DNA from: an uncultured Candidatus Saccharibacteria bacterium
GTDB lineage: Bacteria; Patescibacteriota; Minisyncoccia; Phycocordibacterales; JACOZG01
Direction: 5' to 3'
Length of the DNA: 64,000 bases
Assembly: GCA_964448295.1 (NCBI GenBank)
Contig: CAYUVV010000001.1
Location: 144,065-208,064 of the forward strand
Shown: positions 17,763-61,423 of the stretch, piece by piece
Numbering within the stretch: the first letter of the stretch is position 1
Layout: every line of letters starts with the position of its first letter
The notes under the pieces: generated by a model
What the model was told of the DNA's origin: nothing
What the model saw: the letters and a program-made list of their open reading frames with translations, nothing else
The model's database searches: none
Made by a program: the position numbers and the translations under genes

Positions 17763-17780
17763 AAGTTGATTAGTCGCCCC

Positions 17781-17865
17781 GCTCGGACGCGGCGGAATTC
17801 CTCCCACACCCCCCCCTTCCGCCGCGCCCTCGCTTGGACGGACGGAATTTTTGGCGGCGGCATTG
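17781..17865 (+). repeat. Structured ~85-bp repeat, copy 1 (20 bp after tRNA-Ala, about 80 bp upstream of the C-protein gene)
   Basis: GCTCGGACGCGGCGGAATTCC-TCCCACAC-C8-TTCCGCCGCG-CCCTCGCTTGGACGGACGGAATTTTTGGCGGCGG; 10-bp perfect inverted repeat CGCGGCGGAA/TTCCGCCGCG. Confidence 0.8.
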
Positions 17866-21866: not shown

Positions 21867-21871
21867 TATAG

Positions 21872-21958
21872 CAATGCCGCCGCCAAAAATTCCGTCCGTC
21901 CAAGCGAGGGCGTGGCGGAAGGAGGGGGTTGGGGGGAGGAATTCCGCGCCGTCCGAGC
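21872..21958 (-). repeat. Structured ~85-bp repeat, copy 2 (inverted relative to copy 1; 6 bp after the stop of the Z1-like gene)
   Basis: Reverse complement aligns with copy 1 over its whole length, with poly-C tract variation. Confidence 0.8.
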
Positions 21959-22186
21959 ACCGCATTGAACCCGCCACATTGCCTGAATACTTGGAGGGCA
22001 GAACCCCGAAAGAAAACACCCTTTCCCTTTTCAGAAAAAATTTCATCCCAGCCAAATCAGAAAAGCAAGGAGTGTTTTTTTCGGGGTTGCCGCCGAGTCC
22101 GCGAGGCGGTGTCAGCGGGTTAGTCAGTATTTTGTTGGAAGTAAGTCCGAACTTTTTGGTATAATGACCATAATCACGATAATTAA

Positions 22187-50909: not shown

Positions 50910-52208
50910 ATGGAAACAATGGCAATACCCCGCCGAAATACGGCGACTCCCGGCCTTCAAGAACAGGAGCCTATCCGCTATTGCCTCTACGCCCGCAAAT
51001 CGAGCGAAGCCGAAGAGAAACAAGCCTTGTCCATCGATTCTCAAATTAAGGAAATGCTGACCATTGCCCAGCGCGACGGTTTAAACATCATCGAGATGTA
51101 TCGTGAGTCGCACTCAGCCAAAGACTGCGGCCAACGGCCAGTTTTCAACAAATTGCTCATTGATATCCGCGAGGGCAAGTTTAACGGTATTCTCGTCTGG
51201 CATCCCGATCGGCTGAGCCGGAACGCCGGCGACCTTGGTACGGTTGTGGATCTGCTTGACCAGAAGAAATTAATCGAGATTCGCACTTACAGCCAGCGTT
51301 TTACCAACAACCCGAATGAGAAATTCCTGCTCATGATTCTCGGCTCTCAAGCCAAGTTGGAAAATGATAACAAGAGCGTCAATGTAAAGCGCGGCCTCAA
51401 GACCAAGTGCGAACTCGGGCTTTGGCCCTCGGTGGCGCCAACCGGATACCTGAACTCCAAGAACAAAGATCAGAAAGGCGTGGTGTTCGTGGATCCGGAT
51501 CGAGCGCCAATTATCAAAGAACTTTTCCGCAAAGTGGCTAATGAAGGCTGGAGCGGCCGAAAGATTTACCGATGGCTCAAGGAGATTAAATTTGTCACCC
51601 GCACCGGCAAGCCGCTCACCTTGAGCAATGTTTATGTGATTCTCAACAATCACTTCTACCACGGCTCGTTTGAGTATCCCAAACAGAGCGGTCGCTGGTT
51701 CCAAGGCAGGCATATGCCGCTAATCTCCAAAGACTTGTTCGATGAGGTCCAGAAACAGCTCCACCTGCAAATTAAGGCCCACAATCGTAACAAAGAATTC
51801 GCCTTCACTCGATTGCTTTTCTGCGGCGTCTGTGGCTCAGGCGTGACGGCGCAGGAAAAATTCAAGAGTTTGAAGGATGGCTCGATCGCCAAGTATATTT
51901 ACTACGGCTGTACCCGGGCCAAAAATATCAACTGCGAGAAAATTCTCATTGATCAGTTAACCAAAATCATTGACCAAATCGATCTCGATCGCTCGGGCAT
52001 CAAGAAAAAACTTGGAGCCGAGATCGAGCGGCATAAAAAATTTCACTCAGGGATTATGGGAAAAAGCGAAGAAGCCTATCGCGCGAAAGATGCCGATATC
52101 AGAAATTACGCGAAGTATCTGCTAATCGAAGGATCGATATTTGAGAAGCGGGATTTGCTGGGGTGTTTGAAGAGTAAGCTCTCTCTTAAGAATAAGATAA
52201 TCTACTAA
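50910..52208 (+). CDS. Large serine recombinase (resolvase N-domain + recombinase domain + Zn ribbon)
   Basis: YARKSS catalytic region, DRLSRN, C-terminal Cys cluster CGVCGSG...YYGC. Confidence 0.85.
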   Translation: METMAIPRRNTATPGLQEQEPIRYCLYARKSSEAEEKQALSIDSQIKEMLTIAQRDGLNIIEMYRESHSAKDCGQRPVFNKLLIDIREGKFNGILVWHPDRLSRNAGDLGTVVDLLDQKKLIEIRTYSQRFTNNPNEKFLLMILGSQAKLENDNKSVNVKRGLKTKCELGLWPSVAPTGYLNSKNKDQKGVVFVDPDRAPIIKELFRKVANEGWSGRKIYRWLKEIKFVTRTGKPLTLSNVYVILNNHFYHGSFEYPKQSGRWFQGRHMPLISKDLFDEVQKQLHLQIKAHNRNKEFAFTRLLFCGVCGSGVTAQEKFKSLKDGSIAKYIYYGCTRAKNINCEKILIDQLTKIIDQIDLDRSGIKKKLGAEIERHKKFHSGIMGKSEEAYRAKDADIRNYAKYLLIEGSIFEKRDLLGCLKSKLSLKNKIIY

Positions 52209-52963
52209 GATAGTAGCCCGGCCTGCTCTCGTGACATACCTTTTGCACCCTCATTTCTTATTTTCTTCCAGATTCTTTCAACTCCATCAATGTGCCCTTT
52301 TTCTCTTTCGCGATTGCGTTGTGCTTCTTCGATAACTTTTGACCATCTCAACATCATAAGGACTGCCCCTTCCCTAACTAAGTCAAAGAAGTCCTTAGGC
52401 CTAAGCATAATTGTTTTGTGTTCCCTTATGGCGAACTCAGCTTCCATCTTTTCCTTATTTTCGTCCGATAAGTCATTGGCTGCTAGCGCAATAAAAATAT
52501 CTTCCGTCGGCTCACCAAATCCAAAGAAGTGGACTAGGGCATTTCTAAATTTATATAGACGCTCACTACTAACTGCAGTAAAGAGACCTTTATAATATTG
52601 ATTCTCGGTATTTATACAGAATTCCTCATACCAAACCCTTGGTCTTTTATTGGTGGTACCCGTCTGATTTAAATAGCTAAACCAATAACTGGCTAATACA
52701 TCGATTAAACTGAAGGTCACGATCATTTGTATACGCTGGGGAATCGGAGTAATCTCTTTGTCATTTTTAAAGAAAACGGTGTTACATTCTTCAATTACAC
52801 TCATTAAGAAATCTACGACCTCCTTTTCTCTAGCTGTGTGCTGAGATATATATTGCTTCCTGTTATCATACATATAGAGGCTACAGTTAGGATCACCCGT
52901 CCCATAACAACGCTTATATTTCTTTCCGCTTCCACACGGGCATTTATCATTTCTTCCCGTCAT
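52205..52963 (-). CDS. SEC-C-motif protein with uncharacterised C-terminal domain
   Basis: N-terminal KCPCGSGKKYKRCYG; remaining 220 aa unknown. Confidence 0.5.
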   Translation of the reverse strand: MTGRNDKCPCGSGKKYKRCYGTGDPNCSLYMYDNRKQYISQHTAREKEVVDFLMSVIEECNTVFFKNDKEITPIPQRIQMIVTFSLIDVLASYWFSYLNQTGTTNKRPRVWYEEFCINTENQYYKGLFTAVSSERLYKFRNALVHFFGFGEPTEDIFIALAANDLSDENKEKMEAEFAIREHKTIMLRPKDFFDLVREGAVLMMLRWSKVIEEAQRNREREKGHIDGVERIWKKIRNEGAKGMSREQAGLLS

Positions 52964-53233
52964 AAAATTTCTCAGATAATTTTGACCCCTCTTGGTCCTT
53001 CGATACTTTTCTAGACTGCTGTCCCTCCTGAATGAAATCCGAACTTTTTACCAAACGAACCCTGACGAATGAAGCCGCCCCGCCGCCGCTCGCTGACGCT
53101 CGCCACCGAGCAAAACACTCTTTACATTTTCTGATTTGCGCGCGCCCCCGAAAAATTTTTCCAATTAAGGAAAAGAGTATTTTGCTCGGCTCTGCTCTGA
53201 ACGAGCAGGCGGCGGGGCTGGCCTCTATTTTTT

Positions 53234-53316
53234 GCTCGGGCGCGGCGGAATTCCCCCCACACCCTCCTTCCGCCGTGTTCTTGCGGGAACGGACGGAATT
53301 TTTGGCGGCGGTTATT
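53234..53316 (+). repeat. Structured ~85-bp repeat, copy 3 (overlaps stop of helicase gene)
   Basis: GCTCGGGCGCGGCGGAATTCCCCCCACACCCTCCTTCCGCCGTG...GGACGGAATTTTTGGCGGCGG. Confidence 0.8.
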
Positions 53317-56300
53317 TTGATTTTAGCATCTCCTTTATCTCCTGAACACACTGCTCCAAATCATTTTGGAGTTGATACACCCAAAATCGTTTGACTTGCC
53401 ATCCATGCATGATGAGATGCTGATCTCGTTTCAAATCCGAGAGCAAGCGACCTCCGTCAATGTCGCGATGCCACATCTCGCCGTCAATCTCAATATCAAT
53501 CGGGATTTCAGAATCAAGAACGGCAAGGTCAAGACGATATTGGTACAACGGATATTGCGAGATGGTTCTGATACCTTCCCGCGCGAGGGCGTCATACAAA
53601 ACTTCCTCCCACGGCGACTCAAATTTTCCTCCGCTTTTATTTTTATTTTCCGGTTCCAACTCCTCGACATACTTCACGAAATCCGAAAGATGCGAGATGC
53701 CGGATTGAGCGCAAGCAACCCTGTCGCCGACAATATGCAATTCCGCCCTCGCACGGGTAATCGCGACATTGAATAGATTTACCGTATTTCCCAAAAATCC
53801 TAACGAGCGTTGCTGGATTTTACGCGATACAACCGGAGAGAAAATCATAATGTCGCGTTGGTCGCCTTGATATTTATGCGCGGTATCAACTGTAAAATCC
53901 AGTTTTCGCAACTGCGCCGCGTCTATCTTTTGCTCTACCAAATCTCTGATTTTGTTCGCTTGCTCTCGGAAGGGCGTAACAACGCCGAGCGATACGGAGT
54001 AGTCGTCGCCGTGGGCGAAAATTCTTTTGATAATTTCTTCAATCAACGCAACAATCGCTTTCGCCTCGTCCAAATTGTATGCGCTTCCAGCAGATGGCCG
54101 AATAACCTCGCCGACGACATCGTGCCAAATGAGCGCGTCTGGATGTCCGGCGCCGCGCAACCTACGATAATCCGTCCAAACGCTCAATTTCCCGCCATAA
54201 AACTTTTTGTTGGAGAAACCGATAATTTCCGCGCGGCTCCTGTAGTGTTCGAGTAAGTGAACGAATTTTGCACCCGTTCCTACAACGCTTCGCGCAAGCT
54301 CAAAAAGAGAGTTTATGCTGTAAAGAAAGCGTTGGTCGTCGGTCGAGGTTAGGCCAATCTGCCGTTGCAACTGTTGATCGTCCGCGCGATGCAAAAGAGA
54401 GATGTGCGTGAGCTGATTTGGGTCGCCCACAATCACGGCTCGCTTCGCGCGATAAAGTAGCGGAATTGCGGACGCGATGTCGCATTGAGACGCTTCGTCA
54501 ATAATCACGACATCAACGGCTCCTGCGCTCAACGGGAGTGCGTGACGGACGGATAGATTTGTAACGGCCATCGCCGGAAACGCCCTTACTACGCTTTTGA
54601 ACATTCGCTTGCGCTCATTTCTCAACTCCTCCGCAAGTTCGCCTCCTGTTACATCACCCTCTAATCGGCGCACGATACTCACATAGTCCGCAATATCGCG
54701 CCGTTCCTTAGGGCCAAGCGACTTGAGACGACGCTTCATCAACGCATCAACATATATGACGCTAATATCTATCGCGCGTTCTTTGCTTTTTGTGATTCGC
54801 TCCCGCAAAACTTCTACGCGCGCTTCGTTCTCATTCTCTCGCACAATTCCTAGAAGTTCAGATTGATTATCAATCCACTTTTTCAAGGCGCGGCAAATTG
54901 TCAAAAGCTCTCGGCAGTTATGAACGGAATTGAGCGAGATATTGATGCCTTCGACTGGCGCAAGCAGAAGTAATGATTTTGCTGTTTCCAAAACTCGTTT
55001 TTCCAGCGTAGAACCGAAAAGCGCAAGAACGCGCGAAATAAAACCGGGTCCCTCGTCAATTTCCTTTACTAAGCGACCCAACGAAACAAGAGTGTTATAA
55101 AATTCCTGTTTCCCTTCGATTTTTTGATACGAGTTGAGGTTGCGAGAAATTGACGAAGGCAATTCCGCTCTGACAGATTCAAGCGCGGCATCAAGGCGAC
55201 TTATGCGATTCCTGCGATCAAGAATGCGGAATAGTGATTGTTGCGCCTCTTTTTCTTCCGAACGCACTACCTCAAGCTCTTTTTTGTATTCGCCAATTTC
55301 TCGCTCTAGCGATTGGCTGTTGTAGCTTGAGGCGCGTTCAATCGCGGACAAAAGTGCTTCCGCAAATTCAATCTCGCGTTCCTTCTGCCCATATTTGAGA
55401 ATGACCGGCTCGGATTGAAGTCGCAATAATCTTTCAATGACGACATCAACCGCTTTGTGGTTTTTACTTCCGAATAAAACGCTTTCGTTATGAAGTAGCG
55501 CGTTGGCAATAATATTAAGAACGATTTGCGACTTTCCGGTTCCGGGCGGTCCGGTAATGACACTAACCGTATTGTTGAATGCACTTTTGACCGCGCCTCT
55601 TTGTTCATCGTTCAGTCCGGTTATTTCCAGCAATCCATCGCCGTTGTCCTCTTTGACTTCTGCGTTTCTATCAAGAATTACGCGCCATACATCATTCGGA
55701 GCGGTGGTATCTCGTAATTCGCTCAATTCTTGCTCTAGCCCACCAGTGTATTTTGAATCCGCGCTCCGAAAAATAACGCCAAGAGGCAAAACACCGCCCT
55801 CCGCTTTTAATTCTGTTGTTTTGCCGCCTAGAATATCTTTTGAGAAAGGAACCTCTTGCGGCAAAAGCTCGGCGAACGCACCCAAAATAGTTTTGAGATT
55901 TTGCCCTCTGCTTTTCTCATCGTCCCATGATTCCAAAACCGCTTCGGCGATTTGCTTTCTTTCCTCAACGCTCGTCAGTAAACTTTTATCTGTGAGAAAA
56001 GCAGAGTTGATTCTCGGTCTATCAGATTGCAAAACGAAAGCGTGTCCGGTTTCTGTTTGAACGAGGTCTATACCGAAAATCAGGATGGGCTGGATTATTT
56101 GACCCGACCATCCTCGTCGCGATTGTTCAATATGTTTAATGTGGCAAGGAAAGCCATAGAAATACGAAAGTGGACTGCGGCTCCATCGGGGACCGCTGAT
56201 GAACGCTTGGATTTTTTCATTTTGACCCTCAAATTCCAGTTTTTCCTTGCCGGACGCAATCCACTCTTTTTCCATTGCAGGCACCTGCAAAAACTCCACT

Positions 56301-56500
56301 CCATCTTTTGACGAGTAGAGTGTGATTTCTCCGGAGTTCTCAACGGAAATGCATGAGCCGTAATATTTGAGGAGTTTTTGCCAGCGTGAGGATGTAGGGT
56401 CGGTGTGAACCACCGGAGTCTTGTTTTCTGTTTTTCGGGCGGTTGCCGTTCGCCTATATCCGCCTCGACCTCTGTATTTGTTGCGATAGTAGGTTGCCAT
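53312..56500 (-). CDS. SF1 (Upf1/DNA2-like) helicase fused to C-terminal DUF559/Vsr-like endonuclease domain; N-terminal about 300-aa DUF4011-like region
   Basis: Walker A ITGPPGTGKSQ, Walker B VVIIDEASQ, motif VI region TAHKYQGDQRD, C-terminal YRLDLAV...IEIDGEMWH...D...K nuclease-like core. Confidence 0.8.
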   Translation of the reverse strand: MATYYRNKYRGRGGYRRTATARKTENKTPVVHTDPTSSRWQKLLKYYGSCISVENSGEITLYSSKDGVEFLQVPAMEKEWIASGKEKLEFEGQNEKIQAFISGPRWSRSPLSYFYGFPCHIKHIEQSRRGWSGQIIQPILIFGIDLVQTETGHAFVLQSDRPRINSAFLTDKSLLTSVEERKQIAEAVLESWDDEKSRGQNLKTILGAFAELLPQEVPFSKDILGGKTTELKAEGGVLPLGVIFRSADSKYTGGLEQELSELRDTTAPNDVWRVILDRNAEVKEDNGDGLLEITGLNDEQRGAVKSAFNNTVSVITGPPGTGKSQIVLNIIANALLHNESVLFGSKNHKAVDVVIERLLRLQSEPVILKYGQKEREIEFAEALLSAIERASSYNSQSLEREIGEYKKELEVVRSEEKEAQQSLFRILDRRNRISRLDAALESVRAELPSSISRNLNSYQKIEGKQEFYNTLVSLGRLVKEIDEGPGFISRVLALFGSTLEKRVLETAKSLLLLAPVEGINISLNSVHNCRELLTICRALKKWIDNQSELLGIVRENENEARVEVLRERITKSKERAIDISVIYVDALMKRRLKSLGPKERRDIADYVSIVRRLEGDVTGGELAEELRNERKRMFKSVVRAFPAMAVTNLSVRHALPLSAGAVDVVIIDEASQCDIASAIPLLYRAKRAVIVGDPNQLTHISLLHRADDQQLQRQIGLTSTDDQRFLYSINSLFELARSVVGTGAKFVHLLEHYRSRAEIIGFSNKKFYGGKLSVWTDYRRLRGAGHPDALIWHDVVGEVIRPSAGSAYNLDEAKAIVALIEEIIKRIFAHGDDYSVSLGVVTPFREQANKIRDLVEQKIDAAQLRKLDFTVDTAHKYQGDQRDIMIFSPVVSRKIQQRSLGFLGNTVNLFNVAITRARAELHIVGDRVACAQSGISHLSDFVKYVEELEPENKNKSGGKFESPWEEVLYDALAREGIRTISQYPLYQYRLDLAVLDSEIPIDIEIDGEMWHRDIDGGRLLSDLKRDQHLIMHGWQVKRFWVYQLQNDLEQCVQEIKEMLKSK

Positions 56501-56502
56501 AA

Positions 56503-56709
56503 TTATGAAAGAAGATTGCGCGGATCAACGCCGAGGGCATCAGCCAATCTTTCGAGATTTTTAACTGTAGGATTTCTAATTCCGCGCTCTATTCCGCTAA
56601 TGTAGCTCCGGTGAACGGCAAGTTTCTTGGCGATGTCCCCTTGGGACATACCTTTTTGCAAGCGGATTTTTCGTAGTTGCTCTCCAAGTTTTTTAGTAAG
56701 TGGCTTCAT
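56503..56709 (-). CDS. XRE-family HTH regulator (immediately upstream of, and co-directional with, the helicase)
   Basis: HTH_XRE; start set to the internal ATG (MKPLTKKLGEQL). The longer track ORF uses a non-ATG start that runs into the repeat. Confidence 0.7.
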   Translation of the reverse strand: MKPLTKKLGEQLRKIRLQKGMSQGDIAKKLAVHRSYISGIERGIRNPTVKNLERLADALGVDPRNLLS

Positions 56710-56797
56710 AGTGTCTTGTTGATATGTTAGCACTTGTTGCACTATTGGTCTATAGAGTATTATAATACTCGTATGGTAATCGCCGCTCCCGCAAGAA

Positions 56798-56870
56798 CAC
56801 GGCGGAATTCCCCCCACACCCCCCCCCCTTCCGCCGCGCCCTCGCTTGGGCTGGCGAATTTTTTGGCGGT
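56798..56870 (+). repeat. Structured ~85-bp repeat, copy 4 (about 85 bp upstream of the HTH gene start)
   Basis: CACGGCGGAATTCCCCCCACAC-C10-TTCCGCCGCGCCCTCGCTTGGGCTGGCGAATTTTTTGGCGG; 5' end diverged. Confidence 0.75.
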
Positions 56871-57589
56871 TAACTAATCCTTACTATCTCCGCCAGCAAA
56901 ACATCCATATCATTTGAAAAATTTATCTGCGTTTTGTTTGGCAGAGATTCCTTATTCCTAATTTTTGTATGTAGGTATGAGTCAGCAATTTTTCGAGACG
57001 AGTTCTCCAAGTGAGACATTGAATCTTTAAAACTCTTTGTGCCGTAATTGTTCGCGACTTCCGTAAAGGTATTTAGATTAAAAATTGGCGGAACATGATC
57101 AAGTATGGCTCGCACCAATAAAATAACCGAAATATAGTTGCCCACAGAGTAGGCGTGATCCAACTCTGAAAGCATTTGAATCAACCTTGAAAAGTCGAGC
57201 CGTCCTTTTTTCTTTTTCAAAGCTTGAAAACGTTTTTTGTCTATGAATCCTCCATCGACGGTAACGAGCTTAATTTTACTATCCTTGAAGCACTGGTTGA
57301 GTTGAAAGTCTTTCTCTACCTCCGCCAATTTATCGCTCTTAAGCCGCCATTCATCCTTTGCCACTTTGGAAGTTCGCCGATCTTTCGCTATCGCTGAGCG
57401 TAGTTTTGTAATATTCGGACTTCCAAGGCCAGCGCTTTTAAAATCGGATATAACTTGTTTTAATGTTGCTCCGGTGTCTTTTTTGACTGCATAAAAATAC
57501 AAAAAGCAGACCGCTCTATCGGCAATTTTTGTAGCTCGTCGGCTCATGCAATGAGCAAAGGATTCAGTGATCGCGCTATTTTTCTTCAT
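56870..57589 (-). CDS. Hypothetical protein, paralog group member 3 (shared about 50-aa domain at N-terminus)
   Basis: 239 aa; ADRAVCFLYFYAVKKDTGATLKQVISDFKSAGLGSPNITKLRSAI aligns with segments of the two upstream proteins. Confidence 0.5.
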   Translation of the reverse strand: MKKNSAITESFAHCMSRRATKIADRAVCFLYFYAVKKDTGATLKQVISDFKSAGLGSPNITKLRSAIAKDRRTSKVAKDEWRLKSDKLAEVEKDFQLNQCFKDSKIKLVTVDGGFIDKKRFQALKKKKGRLDFSRLIQMLSELDHAYSVGNYISVILLVRAILDHVPPIFNLNTFTEVANNYGTKSFKDSMSHLENSSRKIADSYLHTKIRNKESLPNKTQINFSNDMDVLLAEIVRIS

Positions 57590-58067
57590 CTATTTTCAAA
57601 AGAGATTCAAAATATTTTGCTCCCTTTCTATTCAATTTATAAACTACCGCCTTACCTTTGACGCGAGTTGAATCTCCCTCCAGATATTTCTGTAGCGATT
57701 CTGTAATCGCTTTAGACACATTTGGCGTTTTAACTCCAACCCGTAGCTCAGAGGTAATCCTTGCAACATCACCGGTAGTAAGCCCTTGCCGGGGGAAGTA
57801 TTTATAGTAAATGTAGAATGGCAATAAGACTCTGCCGGGGATTGAAACTTTATCAAGTATTTTTTCCTCAATTTTGTCCGCATCTTCGCAATTCTTAATC
57901 TTGTTCACGATGGCTAAAATATGATCATTCGAATCATTGCTAATTTTAGCTGGCTTCTTGACTAAAGACTGTTTCTGTTTTGTCGGAGTATTAAACAACG
58001 CCGCAAGGCATTCGTCCGCTAAAGACTTTATCTCATTGAGCTTTGATACAAGTTTGTCGTTCGTCAT
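57576..58067 (-). CDS. Hypothetical protein, paralog group member 2
   Basis: 163 aa; coiled-coil N-terminus; shared domain PGRVLLPFYIYYKYFPRQGLTTGDVARITSELRVGVKTPNVSKAI...GKAVVYKLNRKG; Lys-rich. Confidence 0.5.
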   Translation of the reverse strand: MTNDKLVSKLNEIKSLADECLAALFNTPTKQKQSLVKKPAKISNDSNDHILAIVNKIKNCEDADKIEEKILDKVSIPGRVLLPFYIYYKYFPRQGLTTGDVARITSELRVGVKTPNVSKAITESLQKYLEGDSTRVKGKAVVYKLNRKGAKYFESLLKIDEEK

Positions 58068-58069
58068 AT

Positions 58070-58597
58070 TTATTTCGTCGTTTTATTCTTCTTGCGGCGA
58101 GTAGTACTTTTGTATTTGCTTTTCTTGACCATATCCTCGGGAAATCCACCCTGCAAAACTTTCATACCGGTATTAGTAATGTAAAAACTGCCTTTCTTTA
58201 CCGGATCCGGTGCTATCCAGCCACTGCTTATAGCCCACTTAAAATCGCGTGTCAGGTTTGCCGGAATCAGTTCTCCAGCGTCACGAAAAAGACTTTTAAT
58301 TTCGCCCTGCTGAAAGGAGTCTTTATTGTGAAATTCTTTAAGGAACCCCGCCAATGTAAGAATCTTGTCGGGATTGCGCTTAGGTGCGTGCCTGTTTAGA
58401 TACTCTGCCGCAGATTCCCTTTGTGAACCAGTGCGACGAATAGATACTGGCGGCGCTGTCTTCACGACGCCATGTTCTTCGCCCCCAGCCGAAAGACAAA
58501 GAGCCATTATTTGTCCTGCAGTGTTTTCGTCAATCAATTTCTCATAAGATAGCCCAGCACCCTTGATGGTTATCTTTATTTTTGCTTGCTTATCCAT
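58070..58597 (-). CDS. Hypothetical protein, paralog group member 1
   Basis: 175 aa; shared domain PDKILTLAGFLKEFHNKDSFQQGEIKSLFRDAGELIPANLTRDFKWAI...KGSFYITNTGMK; basic tail KKSKYKSTTRRKKNKTTK. Confidence 0.5.
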   Translation of the reverse strand: MDKQAKIKITIKGAGLSYEKLIDENTAGQIMALCLSAGGEEHGVVKTAPPVSIRRTGSQRESAAEYLNRHAPKRNPDKILTLAGFLKEFHNKDSFQQGEIKSLFRDAGELIPANLTRDFKWAISSGWIAPDPVKKGSFYITNTGMKVLQGGFPEDMVKKSKYKSTTRRKKNKTTK

Positions 58598-58721: not shown

Positions 58722-59831
58722 TTAAATCCCCGACTTTGTTCGATTATGTTCCCTGCATAGCATTTGGCAATTTTCTGCGGTTGTTTTACCGCCCTCGTGC
58801 CAAGGGGTAATATGGTCGGCTTCCATTTCCTCAATATCCCACTTTTGCTTTTCTTTCTTCTCTTTTTTGCACCACGGACAAATGCCATTTTGCCGCTCGT
58901 ACGCTTCGCGCTTCATTTTGTCGGTAAAAGCGCGGATTGAAAGATATTTTTCTTGTCTTGTTAAAACATACGGATAGATGCCGGATTTTTTGGTAACATC
59001 CTCGTCCTGCATCAATTCTTTGATTTCAGCTTCCAATTTCGCAGGATTTAATTTTTTGTCTTTGAATTTGTTGTAAAGTTCGCCCCAGTTCACATGCGCC
59101 ATCTCCTTGCGGTAATTAGGAAAAGTTTTGCGCACCCAAGCAATCACATCTTGAAAGTACTCCCAAAGCTCATCAGCATTTTTGTCGTGCTGATGGCGGG
59201 CCATATAGTCCTCAATTTTACCCTCGTTTATCCACGAAAGCGCAGTTTCGAGATATTCCTGACGGATCGGCGAACCGCTCAAAAGCGCACCGCCGTCATT
59301 GGCGAGCAGATACGCCGCGCAGTTTGATTTGCTGAATTTGAGTTTTGCGTCAGAAAGCCACGGGCCGGTATAAACCGCGTTGCGAATTTCTTGATCGGTC
59401 AATTTTTCTCCGGCAATGTTAATGATCCTGAACCAATCCAGCCGCTCTTTGTCTGTCCCTTCGCAGAAATAAATCATGAGTTCATAATCCAAAATCTGGT
59501 TTTGTTCTTCTTTGGTGAGATTGTGAAAATATCTTTCGTTCAGCGAGAAATCGCCGGTTACATACTGCCCGATGCTGATGGTGCGCTGTTGGCCGTCCAG
59601 CACTTCATAGCCGCCGTCTTCGCGCACCATCCAATACATCACATTGAGCGGAAAGTTGTTTTTGATGGTTTCAATTACGGCATTGCGCTGTTTTTCTTTA
59701 TAAACGAATTCACGCTGATATTTGGGACGGATATCCAGCTTGCCGTCATATGCCACAACGCCCTCCTCGGCGCTGTCCTTGTAGCCAGCAATCACTTTAC
59801 GGATCGGAATTTTGTGGAGTTCAATTTTCAT
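58722..59831 (-). CDS. DUF262 (ParB-like) + HNH nuclease (GmrSD/SspE-like architecture), candidate restriction component
   Basis: DGQQRTISIGQYV DUF262 motif; C-terminal CPWC...ADHITPWHEGGKTTAENCQMLCREHN HNH. Confidence 0.8.
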   Translation of the reverse strand: MKIELHKIPIRKVIAGYKDSAEEGVVAYDGKLDIRPKYQREFVYKEKQRNAVIETIKNNFPLNVMYWMVREDGGYEVLDGQQRTISIGQYVTGDFSLNERYFHNLTKEEQNQILDYELMIYFCEGTDKERLDWFRIINIAGEKLTDQEIRNAVYTGPWLSDAKLKFSKSNCAAYLLANDGGALLSGSPIRQEYLETALSWINEGKIEDYMARHQHDKNADELWEYFQDVIAWVRKTFPNYRKEMAHVNWGELYNKFKDKKLNPAKLEAEIKELMQDEDVTKKSGIYPYVLTRQEKYLSIRAFTDKMKREAYERQNGICPWCKKEKKEKQKWDIEEMEADHITPWHEGGKTTAENCQMLCREHNRTKSGI

Positions 59832-59832
59832 A

Positions 59833-60906
59833 TTATTTCTTTACTTTCTTATTTCTAATTACAACACGAACATAAGTTGGCTTACCATTTATTGCCCCTT
59901 CCTTATCCTTGATAAGGCCATGCTCTTTGTATGGAACATTGCTATTGCGTCTAATATCATTGGCACTTAATATCTCAAACTTGTCGGGATTGTATTTAGC
60001 AAGAAAAGTAATCGGCACTCCCATTGCACCGTCATAATCCATTGGAATATCAGAATATCTTGAAACCTCTATAGCATCATAATTGTCATATTTTGGGTAT
60101 TCTTTTGGGTTGTATTTTTTATATAAGGTGAGCTCCTCGTGTCTCTTTGTTGTATCTAAATTGGTGTACCAAAGTATTCTCCCCATACTGAAGTATTTAA
60201 TGCCATTTACAATTTTCTTTCTTGATTCTGTGGGTATGTCATAATCCATCGGCACCTGAAACCATTTTGTGCCACCATTGTCGTAGCCCAGCCATAATTT
60301 ATTGCTTTTTATAAGTTTAAAAATCTCTTTGTAGGTAGAGGCATTTTGATCGCCAAGAATAAGAAATTTTTTATTGTATTCCACAAGTTGGGCAACATAC
60401 TCGCGAAAAAGCGAAAACGGCGGATTCGTTACTACGATATCAGCCTGTTTCAGCAGTTCTATACACTCGTTGCTCCTAAAATCTCCATTGCCTTTAAGCG
60501 GTGTGGCGGCATTTTTATTGTATTTTAATAAATGTTTTACATCTTCAAGATCAATCGCTCCGTTTTTGTCAGAATCCGGCACTTCGTTAATTTCAATCTT
60601 CATTGGCTCTTTGCCTTTTGGCTTCAAGCCCGCTATTTCAAAGAGCGGCAGTTGATTGCCGACTATTGGAGACGGGCTGTAACTTGTGGTGATAAGTTTC
60701 TTTAATCCGAGTGCGTTGAAGTTGCCCGCGAAATATTTGAAAAAATTGCTCTCAAACGGGTCATCGCAATTGCAATACACAATCTTGCCGCGAAATTGAT
60801 TTTTGTAGTGTTTGAGCTCTTTCTCAATATCAACAAGCTGGGTGTAAAACTCGTCTGTTTTAGCGCTTCTCGCTGAATGTAAGTTTTTGTTTAATGATTT
60901 AGTCAT
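59833..60906 (-). CDS. DNA N6-adenine methyltransferase, gamma-class-like (NPPF)
   Basis: N-terminal DEFYTQ (motif X-like), VVTNPPF motif IV; 2 bp from the DUF262-HNH gene and 3 bp from the C-protein gene. Confidence 0.65.
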   Translation of the reverse strand: MTKSLNKNLHSARSAKTDEFYTQLVDIEKELKHYKNQFRGKIVYCNCDDPFESNFFKYFAGNFNALGLKKLITTSYSPSPIVGNQLPLFEIAGLKPKGKEPMKIEINEVPDSDKNGAIDLEDVKHLLKYNKNAATPLKGNGDFRSNECIELLKQADIVVTNPPFSLFREYVAQLVEYNKKFLILGDQNASTYKEIFKLIKSNKLWLGYDNGGTKWFQVPMDYDIPTESRKKIVNGIKYFSMGRILWYTNLDTTKRHEELTLYKKYNPKEYPKYDNYDAIEVSRYSDIPMDYDGAMGVPITFLAKYNPDKFEILSANDIRRNSNVPYKEHGLIKDKEGAINGKPTYVRVVIRNKKVKK

Positions 60907-60908
60907 AA

Positions 60909-61121
60909 TTACTTCTGTATTAAATCATCAACACCAACGCCGAGCGCATCCGCGATTTTGCGGAGCGTCTCAACGCGGGGGTCAGGTGTTGAACCGGTTT
61001 CTATCTTTGCAATGGTGTGTAAAGTAACACCGGCCAATTTGGACAGCTTATCTTGTGAAATACCGAGCTTGTCTCGATATTTCTTTATGTTCTTTGCTAT
61101 GGTGGATAATTCTTTTGCCAT
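60909..61121 (-). CDS. XRE-family HTH, probable controller (C) protein
   Basis: 70 aa; shares ISQDKLSKLA...LHT(V)..I...D....E(T)...IA.AL.V.VDDL with the 17947 HTH. Palindrome AGTAAAGTTTTACT 4 nt upstream of ATG. Confidence 0.8.
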   Translation of the reverse strand: MAKELSTIAKNIKKYRDKLGISQDKLSKLAGVTLHTIAKIETGSTPDPRVETLRKIADALGVGVDDLIQK

Positions 61122-61352
61122 ACCAGTAAAACTTTACTATAATGTGTTTAGCGTGGTATTATTATTGTATGAAAAATAATCCTTTTCGTCAATCTGTTTT
61201 AGGGAGTTCCCTAACCTTGCCCGCGCACTGGGCTGGTGGGGCAATGGCAAGAAAAAATAACTCCGCCAAAGCGAGACCAGCCCCGCCAATGGCGGGGCTG
61301 GGCGAGCGAACCCTCTCGTCTGAAAATTCGCGGTTTGTTTTGTCAGAAGCTG

Positions 61353-61423
61353 CTGCCAGACTTGGATTCGAACCAAGATTCACGGCTCCAAAGGCCGCTG
61401 TCCTACCATTAGACGATCTGGCA
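61353..61423 (-). tRNA. tRNA-Gln (anticodon TTG), no encoded CCA
   Basis: Hand-folded: acceptor TGCCAGA/TCTGGCA (U1-A72 as in bacterial tRNA-Gln), D-stem GTCT/GGAC, anticodon stem GCGGC/GCCGT with loop CTTTGGA, T-arm CTTGG-TTCGAAT-CCAAG. Confidence 0.8.

What the first reader, a model, noticed from the sequence alone, without database searches (positions are those of the whole stretch)
53234..56870. Compact HTH + helicase-nuclease cassette flanked by direct repeats, a candidate single-effector defence module
A 68-aa XRE HTH (56503-56709) lies 2 bp upstream of a 1062-aa protein (53312-56500) on the same strand. The large protein has an about 300-aa DUF4011-like N-terminus, an SF1 Upf1/DNA2-type helicase core (GPPGTGKSQ; VVIIDEASQ) and a C-terminal DUF559/Vsr-like endonuclease fold. 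The pair is bounded on both sides by direct copies of the repeat, which gives an excisable unit. Helicase-nuclease fusions of this kind are enriched in defence islands but have no assigned system name. The tight pairing with a controller-like HTH and the repeat-delimited boundaries make it a testable autonomous anti-phage or anti-plasmid module.
Basis: partly seen in the sequence, partly recalled or inferred. Interest (0 to 1): 0.7.

Follow-up and report, generated by a model that had tools for sequence, protein, structure and literature searches.

The report
Repeat-bounded helicase-nuclease defence-like cassette
A small regulator gene and a large helicase-nuclease gene, a half-size relative of the anti-phage protein Hhe, form a 3.6-kb unit bounded by copies of a hairpin repeat that also brackets restriction-modification gene blocks in related genomes, which suggests that defence genes in these tiny-genome bacteria are shuffled as repeat-bounded cassettes.

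Summary
A 68-aa XRE regulator gene (56503-56709, minus strand) lies 2 nt upstream of a 1062-aa protein gene (53312-56500, minus strand). The large protein has an Upf1-like SF1B helicase core and a C-terminal Vsr/DUF559 nuclease; both are confirmed by profile searches, and the nuclease also by fold. The "DUF4011-like" N-terminus is not supported by Pfam. It is an unannotated domain with no fold match in the PDB and only weak profile similarity to DUF4011.

The protein belongs to a large stand-alone family (about 660 clusters at 50% identity). It is related to the anti-phage proteins Hhe, ProA and MkoC but falls far below their cut-offs. The regulator accompanies it only in this lineage (probably Parcubacteria), so it is an add-on.

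The flanking repeat is real and more informative than described:
- The two copies around the helicase unit are reciprocal hybrids of two repeat subtypes, so DNA was exchanged inside the hairpin.
- In five cassettes from four contigs, the two inward-facing arms match each other almost perfectly but differ between cassettes.
- In one relative, an IS110-family element sits in the hairpin loop.

A defence function is likely but inferred. How the cassette moves is unknown.

The parts
53042..53232 (+). 'S' segment: a long imperfect palindrome that forms the outer part of the long (about 270-nt) form of the repeat
   Evidence: It aligns with window 21867-22144 (-) and with L095 5455-5730. RNAalifold predicts a long hairpin in which 13 pairs change on both sides, though only 3 sequences are available.
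53233..53314 (+). Repeat copy next to the helicase stop codon. It is a hybrid of a subtype-X outer arm (GCTCGGGCG), the stem CGGCGGAA, a C-rich loop, the stem TTCCGCCG, a subtype-Y inner arm (TGTTCTTGCGGGAACGG) and a tail that abuts the stop codon.
53315..53644 (-). C-terminal Vsr/DUF559 (MTES_1575) nuclease domain, residues about 953-1062
53711..55615 (-). SF1B Upf1-like helicase core (residues 296-930), with an insertion of about 200 aa between motifs I and II
   Evidence: Pfam AAA_11 and AAA_12. A profile search of the PDB finds a 5'-3' RNA helicase-like protein (8ftm) at 2.6e-35, plus IGHMBP2, Sen1, Upf1 and DNA2. Walker A, DEASQ, GDxxQ and TRAR are invariant.
55625..56500 (-). N-terminal domain (residues 1-292) with no annotation
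56503..56709 (-). XRE-type HTH regulator, 68 aa, resembling an RM controller (C) protein
   Evidence: Pfam HTH_3 2.9e-19. PADLOC Control_protein 1.7e-18. A 91%-identical copy lies in front of the helicase in L095.
56750..56775 (-). Putative promoter/operator. The perfect 16-bp palindrome GAGTATTATAATACTC (56755-56770) contains TATAAT and is conserved in L095 and L115.
   Evidence: Read directly from the sequence. Its function is inferred.
56783..56807 (-). Inward-facing subtype-Y arm on the HTH side. It is the reverse complement of 53268-53292 (24 of 25 positions), but lacks about 15 nt of the tail.
   Evidence: Inverted repeat I1. The hairpin reconstructed from the two arms has dG -29.6 kcal/mol and z -10.9, whereas the two copies as they stand have z -0.3 and +1.6.
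56791..56870 (+). Repeat copy shared with the neighbouring cassette: loop, subtype-X arm and a tail that abuts the stop codon of ORF 56870-57589
50910..52208 (+). Large serine recombinase at the edge of the island. It is a possible, unproven mobiliser of the larger island.
   Evidence: Pfam Resolvase + Recombinase + Zn_ribbon_recom. It is 59% identical to the recombinase adjacent to the helicase homologue in L099.

Best explanation
The 1062-aa protein is a stand-alone, horizontally mobile helicase-nuclease. It is a compact relative of the single-gene anti-phage protein Hhe and most likely acts as a defence effector.

Proposed mechanism (inferred):
- The unannotated N-terminal domain senses or binds a feature of invading nucleic acid or a replication intermediate.
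- The Upf1-like SF1B motor translocates 5'->3' using ATP.
- The C-terminal Vsr/DUF559-type endonuclease cuts the substrate.

In this lineage (probably Parcubacteria) the gene has acquired a small XRE regulator of the RM-controller type. This regulator probably represses its own promoter through a palindrome that overlaps the -10 box and so limits expression of a dangerous nuclease.

The two genes form a cassette of about 3.56 kb whose ends are inverted, near-identical arms of a hairpin repeat. The cassette sits in an array of such cassettes (RM + three unknown ORFs, then HTH-helicase) next to a large serine recombinase and a tRNA-Gln gene. It entered or was rearranged by DNA exchange within the hairpin stem-loop.

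Shown here: the domain identities, the breadth of the family, the lack of a conserved partner, the repeat anatomy, the hybrid arms, and recurrence of the cassette. Inferred: the defence role, the substrate, the regulation, and the enzyme that moves the cassette.
For: Domains:
- Pfam hits AAA_11, AAA_12, MTES_1575 and DUF559.
- PDB profile hits to Upf1, IGHMBP2, Sen1 and DNA2.

Kinship to defence proteins:
- PADLOC: MkoC 1.9e-63, PDC-S37 6e-56 (covering helicase half 2 plus the nuclease) and Hhe 9e-28.
- NCBIfam: ProA 2.6e-63 and Hhe 4.5e-37.
- Hhe is described as a single gene with helicase and nuclease domains that defends E. coli (10.1101/2024.10.10.617714).

Stand-alone and mobile:
- Relatives of 76-94% identity sit in unrelated surroundings.
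- The helicases of L001 and L099 are 69% identical while their neighbouring XseA proteins are only 41% identical.
- Taxonomic distribution is patchy, spanning Omnitrophota to Nanoarchaeota.

Defence neighbourhoods:
- RM on both sides in the window.
- RM in L095, and a Dcm-type methylase in L088.
- A methylase plus HNH in L100, type I RM plus SIR2 plus Schlafen in L102, and ThsB-TIR in L099.

Regulator: PADLOC Control_protein 1.7e-18. The palindrome is conserved in L095 and L115.

Cassette:
- Repeat statistics.
- Hybrid X/Y arms and the reconstructed hairpin with z -10.9.
- A pure-Y copy pair in L108.
- Inward arms identical within a cassette (48/50, 47/47, 45/45, 29/29) but only 30-40/45 between cassettes.
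- Many contigs carrying close relatives are only 3.4-4.1 kb long.
Against: - No experiment links this family to defence, and all matches to named defence families are partial and far below curated cut-offs (214 vs 1500 bits for ProA; 127 vs 2000 bits for Hhe).
- About half of the sampled neighbourhoods hold no defence gene. L101 is metabolic, L117 is Planctomycete PSCyt/DUF1501, L119 lies directly after rplL, L090-093 lie next to lepA, and L001 and L099 lie next to xseA.
- The cassette encodes no recombinase or transposase, so its mobility is inferred from footprints only.
- The repeat was found only in this lineage. The helicase gene therefore moves without it elsewhere.
Confidence: 0.5

Rival explanations
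1. The repeats are an ordinary lineage-specific intergenic repeat (REP/MITE-like, perhaps a structured 3'/5' UTR element). They happen to lie at gene-block borders. The HTH-helicase unit is not mobilised through them, and exchange is by generic homologous recombination after horizontal transfer.
For: - The cassettes contain no recombinase.
- The long form of the repeat also precedes housekeeping tag (22187) and follows tRNA-Ala.
- Homologues of the helicase in other lineages lack the repeat.
- There is no Rfam or attC-like signature.
Against: - All four copies in 64 kb, and all copies in L095, L108 and L115, border accessory defence-type blocks.
- The inward arms are homogenised within each cassette but diverged between cassettes.
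- The two copies in the window are reciprocal X/Y hybrids.
- The same cassette occurs in both orientations relative to the S segment.
- An IS110-family element targets the loop.
Confidence: 0.3
2. The protein is a housekeeping DNA repair or replication helicase-nuclease (DNA2/AddAB-like), not a defence gene.
For: - The helicase core resembles DNA2.
- Two relatives lie next to xseA/xseB, which encode exonuclease VII.
- Other relatives sit in housekeeping or metabolic surroundings.
Against: - No operon partner is conserved across about 15 contexts.
- Taxonomic distribution is patchy.
- The protein is much better conserved than the adjacent XseA (69% vs 41%), which indicates transfer.
- The gene is bounded by a multi-copy repeat and adjoined by RM systems in this lineage.
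- The nuclease is of the Vsr/DUF559 type, not the DNA2/RecB type.
Confidence: 0.1
3. It acts on RNA in a Mokosh-like manner. The Upf1-type motor would unwind phage transcripts or RNA-DNA hybrids, and the C-terminal domain would bind or cut RNA.
For: - The best PADLOC match is MkoC, and MkoA also matches.
- The closest solved helicases are RNA helicases (8ftm, IGHMBP2, Sen1, Upf1).
Against: - The MkoC match covers only the helicase core (residues 398-945), and there is no PLD nuclease.
- The best fold matches are DNA endonucleases (I-Bth0305I, DUF559, Vsr).
- The matches that extend into the nuclease are to Hhe, ProA and PDC-S37.
Confidence: 0.1

Closest known systems
Hhe (single-gene helicase + Vsr-type nuclease anti-phage system; NCBIfam NF042953, PADLOC Hhe) and the similar NCBIfam 'anti-phage protein ProA' (NF058533)
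   Same: All are single polypeptides with an SF1 AAA_11/AAA_12 helicase followed by an MTES_1575/DUF559 nuclease. The profile matches run through helicase half 2 and the nuclease. A motif-level resemblance to the end of DUF4011 exists (IQPILIFGIDL...PRINSAFL vs YRAPLILVPVTL...PRFNPTLI).
   Different: This protein is about half the size (1062 aa vs about 1800-2250 aa). It scores 127 bits against a cut-off of 2000, and 214 against 1500. It has no Pfam DUF4011, lacks the long N-terminal extension, and has no C-terminal DUF3320 (compare the Paracoccus protein). Its N-domain forms its own family of about 660 clusters.
Mokosh type II (MkoC) and MkoA
   Same: The helicase core is Upf1-like (COG1112-type). 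MkoC is the strongest PADLOC hit at 1.9e-63.
   Different: The match is to the helicase core only. Mokosh carries a PLD-family nuclease (my own knowledge), whereas this protein carries a Vsr/DUF559 nuclease.
Nhi and DNA2-type nuclease-helicases
   Same: Both fuse an SF1B helicase and a nuclease in one protein.
   Different: PADLOC Nhi reaches only E 0.0032, on the Walker A region. The domain order and the nuclease family differ.
C (controller) proteins of restriction-modification systems
   Same: The HTH is a small XRE-type protein encoded immediately upstream of a nuclease gene. It matches PADLOC Control_protein at 1.7e-18. A palindrome overlaps the -10 box. The RM systems of the same island and of L095 and L108 each have their own XRE C-like gene.
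   Different: It controls a helicase-nuclease with no methyltransferase partner. It is absent from almost all other members of the helicase family.
Integron gene cassettes (attC) and the IS1111-attC insertion sequences that target them; pdif modules
   Same: Gene blocks lacking their own recombinase are bounded by imperfect palindromic sites. Neighbouring cassettes share a site, and cassettes carry defence genes. An IS110/IS1111-family element is inserted in the hairpin (target specificity of that family in PMC11187229 and PMC11208160).
   Different: No IntI tyrosine recombinase was seen near the array, and the sites have no GTTRRRY/RYYYAAC cores. Most cassettes here are flanked by inverted, not direct, sites with 45-50-nt matched arms. 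The spacer is a 17-21-nt C-rich loop, too long for a Xer/dif site. The only recombinase nearby is a large serine recombinase.

Membership tests
Hhe (NCBIfam NF042953 / PADLOC Hhe) | Whole-protein match at or above the curated cut-off (2000 bits) | tested here: not met
   The score is 127.1 bits, and only profile positions 1248-1676 of 1797 are covered. PADLOC Hhe gives 9e-28, covering 1351-1764 of 1911.
Hhe (NCBIfam NF042953 / PADLOC Hhe) | N-terminal DUF4011 domain (PF13195) | tested here: inconclusive
   There is no Pfam hit at E<=1. hhalign against DUF4011-bearing N-termini gives Prob 19%, E 0.0012 over 118 columns. Against one sequence it gives Prob 1.1%. Only a shared motif supports the link.
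Hhe (NCBIfam NF042953 / PADLOC Hhe) | SF1 helicase followed by a Vsr/DUF559-type nuclease in one polypeptide | tested here: met
Hhe (NCBIfam NF042953 / PADLOC Hhe) | Protection against phage | not testable with these tools
   This needs cloning and phage challenge.
ProA (NCBIfam NF058533) | Whole-protein match at or above the cut-off (1500 bits) | tested here: not met
   The score is 214.1 bits, covering profile positions 1276-1704 of 1903.
Mokosh type II (MkoC) | COG1112/Upf1-like helicase | tested here: met
   PADLOC MkoC 1.9e-63 over residues 398-945.
Mokosh type II (MkoC) | PLD-family nuclease domain | tested here: not met
   No PLD family appears among the Pfam hits. The C-terminus is MTES_1575/DUF559.
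Upf1-like SF1B helicases | AAA_11 + AAA_12 with Walker A, DExx, and motifs III, V and VI | tested here: met
   Pfam gives 7.8e-28 and 1.8e-30. The PDB profile search hits 8ftm, IGHMBP2, Sen1, Upf1 and DNA2. The motifs are invariant.
Vsr/DUF559 endonuclease fold | Sequence profile above gathering score and matching fold | tested here: met
   [not shown]
RM controller (C) protein | Small XRE HTH upstream of the nuclease gene, with a palindromic operator at its own promoter | tested here: met
   HTH_3 and PADLOC Control_protein match. The palindrome GAGTATTATAATACTC is conserved in L095 and L115. Regulatory activity was not tested.
Integron cassette / attC | IntI-type tyrosine recombinase and attC sites with R''/R' cores (RYYYAAC ... 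GTTRRRY) | tested here: not met
   Read by eye, the ends carry no matching cores. The only recombinase found near the array is a large serine recombinase. The other ORFs of the window were not all scanned.
TIR-bounded mobile unit (MITE-flanked or composite element) | Matched terminal inverted repeats, a target duplication, and a transposase in cis or trans | tested here: inconclusive
   The arms match at 45-48 nt in 4 cassettes and 21/22 nt here. The loop (17-21 nt) is duplicated on both sides. No transposase was identified for them.

The most novel reading that the evidence does not exclude
The hairpin repeat is the recombination site of a previously undescribed cassette system in Parcubacteria (Patescibacteria). 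Defence modules (RM systems, an RM-linked three-ORF set, the HTH + helicase-nuclease) would be units with matched inverted arms that insert at, invert between, and are exchanged through the stem-loop. That would build integron-like defence arrays without an integron integrase. The system could be driven by a trans-acting enzyme, such as the neighbouring large serine recombinase or another host enzyme. The sites are also exploited by IS110-family elements.
Probability: 0.3. Interest if true: 0.8.

Novelty: new variant of a known kind. Interest (0 to 1): 0.55.

Why it matters
Protein: it defines a compact branch of about 1000-1200 aa of the Hhe-like helicase + Vsr-nuclease proteins, with its own unannotated N-terminal domain (about 660 clusters at 50% identity). 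Current defence finders do not name this branch. It is a small, single-gene candidate that is easy to test.

Genome: bacteria of the Patescibacteria group have tiny genomes and few known mobile-element mechanisms. A repeat that brackets several different defence modules would give a concrete, testable route by which such organisms shuffle immunity genes. The supporting features are the matched arms, the hybrid footprints and an IS110-family element in the loop.

Tried and rejected
- DUF4011 assignment. Pfam at E<=1 finds nothing. A word-indexed profile search with the N-domain returned only 5 proteins. The exhaustive profile search lists only the best 150 hits, all short-form proteins, so it could not show whether DUF4011 giants appear in the tail.
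- Known RNA family for the repeat. Nothing was found at the Rfam gathering threshold, and the only E-value hits are chance-level.
- Intrinsic terminator reading of the repeat. The scan gives only weak sites at about the chance rate. On the coding strand the hairpin is followed by an A-run, not a T-run.
- attC reading. There are no GTTRRRY/RYYYAAC cores.
- Exact-sequence look-up of the window protein found nothing on record.
- Literature on 'ProA' and 'PDC-S37' was not found in the held library.
- A repeat copy at the tRNA-Gln end of the island shows only weak, ambiguous similarity (61200-61300).
- Phage and plasmid records contain no full-length relative.
- Simple models for the hybrid arms were considered: circle integration, loop-duplicating insertion, and two inverted-site cassettes followed by a deletion. 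All fit the data and none could be chosen.


Full report
OBSERVATION. The 1062-aa ORF is at 53312-56500 (-). A 68-aa ORF is at 56503-56709 (-), 2 nt upstream on the same strand. Pfam gives HTH_3 (2.9e-19) for the small protein. For the large one it gives AAA_11 (296-446), AAA_12 (731-927), MTES_1575 (965-1059; 42.5 bits, cut-off 38.2) and DUF559 (27.3 bits, cut-off 20.6). The flanking repeat is real. Its 21-nt core occurs three times in the window against 0 expected from shuffles. A profile built from the copies finds four copies of about 85 nt: 17780-17863 (+), 21874-21959 (-), 53233-53314 (+) and 56791-56870 (+).

THE LARGE PROTEIN. A profile of 32 full-length relatives hits solved Upf1-like SF1B helicases: 8ftm at 2.6e-35, then IGHMBP2, Sen1, Upf1 and DNA2. 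Walker A (GPPGTGKSQ), DEASQ, GDxxQ and the QGD...TRAR motifs are invariant.
- Test of the DUF4011 idea. I took a Paracoccus plasmid protein that does contain DUF4011 and 18 giant relatives from the fetched loci. Profile-profile comparison gives only Prob 19%, E 0.0012 over 118 columns. The aligned stretch is nevertheless suggestive: IQPILIFGIDL...FVLQSDRPRINSAFL against YRAPLILVPVTL...FSLTLHDDEPRFNPTLI. I rate the DUF4011 kinship as possible but unproven.
- Family size. An exhaustive profile search finds this N-domain in 663 representative clusters (349 at E<=1e-10). Nearly all are at the N-terminus of proteins of about 1000-1200 aa. This is a coherent, unannotated family.

RELATION TO NAMED SYSTEMS. 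PADLOC gives partial matches to MkoC (1.9e-63, helicase core only), PDC-S37 (6e-56, helicase half 2 plus nuclease), MkoA and Hhe (9e-28). NCBIfam gives ProA at 214 bits (cut-off 1500) and Hhe at 127 bits (cut-off 2000). Hhe is described as a single gene with helicase and nuclease domains that protects E. coli (10.1101/2024.10.10.617714). The window protein is half the size of Hhe and ProA and lacks their long N-terminal region and DUF3320. It is a relative, not a member.

THE HTH. It matches RM controller-protein models (PADLOC Control_protein 1.7e-18). Its upstream region carries a perfect 16-bp palindrome, GAGTATTATAATACTC, that contains a TATAAT. The palindrome is conserved in L095 and L115. 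The RM systems of the same island and of L095 and L108 have their own XRE C-like genes. The pairing is not a family trait. Among relatives of 76-94% identity, only L095 has the HTH. L084, L001/L085/L089, L086/L087, L088 and L090-L093 do not. A small HTH profile finds one only in L095 among 32 family loci. L099 instead has an HTH_17 gene. Two further short contigs of the same lineage (L115, L116) do carry the XRE HTH. The helicase-nuclease is therefore an autonomous single-gene unit, and the regulator is a lineage-specific add-on.

THE REPEAT AND THE CASSETTE. Each copy has an outer arm, the stem CGGCGGAA, a 17-21-nt C-rich loop, the stem TTCCGCCG, an inner arm and a tail (...GGAATTTTTGGCGGCGG). 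The tail abuts the first or last gene of the adjoining block.
- Long form. A form of about 270 nt adds a long palindrome, S. It occurs at 53042-53315 (+), 21867-22144 (-) and in L095.
- Subtypes. Two arm subtypes exist. X has GCTCGGACG ... CGCCCTCGC. Y has GCAAGAACA ... TGTTCTTGC. Pure X copies are at 17.8 kb, at 21.9 kb and in L095 and L115. Pure Y copies are at both ends of L108.
- Hybrids around the helicase unit. The 53.2-kb copy is outer-X + inner-Y. The 56.8-kb copy is Y + X. The two Y arms are reverse complements of each other (24/25; I1). Joined across one loop they give a hairpin of -29.6 kcal/mol (z -10.9), while the copies as they stand are unremarkable. This is the footprint of DNA exchange inside the stem-loop between an X site and a Y site.
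- Recurrence and orientation. The same HTH-helicase cassette bounded by the repeat is found in L095 (next to a different RM system), L115 and L116. Relative to the S segment it has the opposite orientation in L095 and L115 compared with the window.
- IS element in the loop. In L115 the distal repeat stops 6 nt into the loop. There the 3' end of an IS110-family transposase gene begins (Transposase_20, 41.9 bits). That family is known for sequence-specific targets, including attC hairpins (PMC11187229, PMC11208160).
- Contig lengths. Many metagenomic contigs carrying close relatives are only 3.4-4.1 kb long, as expected if assemblies break at a flanking multi-copy repeat.
- Scope. The repeat is absent from all other loci fetched, so it is a feature of this host lineage. 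The >=90% protein cluster is annotated Parcubacteria group / Candidatus Yonathbacteria.

NEIGHBOURHOODS OF RELATIVES. No partner gene is conserved.
- Defence-type neighbours. These occur in the window and in L095 (RM), L088 (Dcm-type methylase), L100 (methylase + HNH), L102 (type I RM, SIR2, Schlafen-AlbA) and L099 (ThsB-TIR).
- Weaker cases. L118 and L120 have toxin-antitoxin-like neighbours.
- No defence neighbours. L001 and L099 lie beside xseA, L090-093 beside lepA, L101 among metabolic genes, L117 among Planctomycete PSCyt/DUF1501 genes, and L119 directly after rplL.
- Evidence for transfer. The helicases of L001 and L099 are 69% identical while their XseA proteins are 41% identical.
- Recombinase link. 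The window's large serine recombinase (50910-52208) is 59% identical to the one adjacent to the helicase gene in L099. This hints that the gene often rides on serine-recombinase islands.

INTERPRETATION. The best reading (confidence about 0.5) is a compact Hhe-like single-gene defence effector. It would combine a sensor-like N-domain, a 5'->3' SF1B motor and a Vsr-type nuclease, here under a C-protein-like autoregulator, packaged as a hairpin-repeat-bounded cassette in a defence array. The domain identities, family breadth, lack of a partner, repeat anatomy and recombination footprints are shown. The defence role, the substrate, the regulation and the mobilising enzyme are inferred. The rivals are an ordinary intergenic repeat with generic recombination (0.3, concerning mobility only), a housekeeping repair enzyme (0.1) and an RNA-targeting Mokosh-like action (0.1).

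NOVELTY. The protein is a new variant of a known kind (the Hhe/ProA-like helicase + Vsr nucleases). The cassette architecture resembles integron cassettes, pdif modules and MITE-flanked units but meets the defining features of none of them. If the hairpins prove to be recombination sites, this would be a new cassette system in Patescibacteria (probability about 0.3).

Noticed in passing
[not shown]
   Followed up: partly
window 56870-58597 (-); L108 2739-4279: Three co-directional ORFs (175, 163 and 239 aa) have no Pfam, PADLOC, NCBIfam or PHROG hit. They recur in L108, where the 239-aa protein is 76% identical, next to a different RM system and again ending at the repeat. They may be an RM-associated or independent defence module.
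   Followed up: partly
window 58722-61121 (-): A type II RM operon with its own controller: an XRE C-like gene (60909-61121, 70 aa), an EcoRI-family adenine methylase (59833-60906) and a DUF262/GmrSD_N + HNH endonuclease (58722-59831; PADLOC REase_II 6.6e-131). It lies next to tRNA-Gln (61352-61423).
   Followed up: partly
window 50910-52963: A large serine recombinase (50910-52208, +) converges on a 252-aa protein with an N-terminal SEC-C motif (52205-52963, -). The recombinase is 59% identical to the one beside the helicase homologue in L099. The low-GC island spans about 49-61 kb.
   Followed up: partly
L115 3587-3972: The 3' part of an IS110-family transposase gene (Transposase_20) lies 11 nt from the point where the repeat is cut off, 6 nt into its loop. 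An IS110-type element appears to target the hairpin loop.
   Followed up: partly
window 53042-53232, 21960-22144; L095 5455-5640: The 'S' part of the long repeat is itself a palindrome of about 165 nt, with compensatory changes among the three copies. In each case it lies just upstream of a co-directional gene (the SEC-C protein gene, tag, or an RM C-protein gene). It could be a portable promoter/5' UTR element or a structured RNA. No Rfam family matches.
   Followed up: partly
L001 6211-11243; L099 3241-7885: Two helicase homologues (88% and 69% identical to the window protein) lie directly beside xseA (exonuclease VII large subunit), on opposite sides of it, in hosts whose XseA proteins are only 41% identical. 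This may be a shared integration hot spot or a functional link.
   Followed up: no
window 61200-61300 (-): Weak similarity (GGCGGGGCTGGTCTC...) to the S/outer-arm part of the repeat, between the RM C-protein promoter and tRNA-Gln. It may be a decayed copy marking the far border of the RM cassette.
   Followed up: partly
L119 7001-9979: A 49%-identical family member is inserted immediately after rplL in the secE-nusG-rplKAJL cluster of a 2.4-Mb genome. This is an unusual site for an accessory gene.
   Followed up: no
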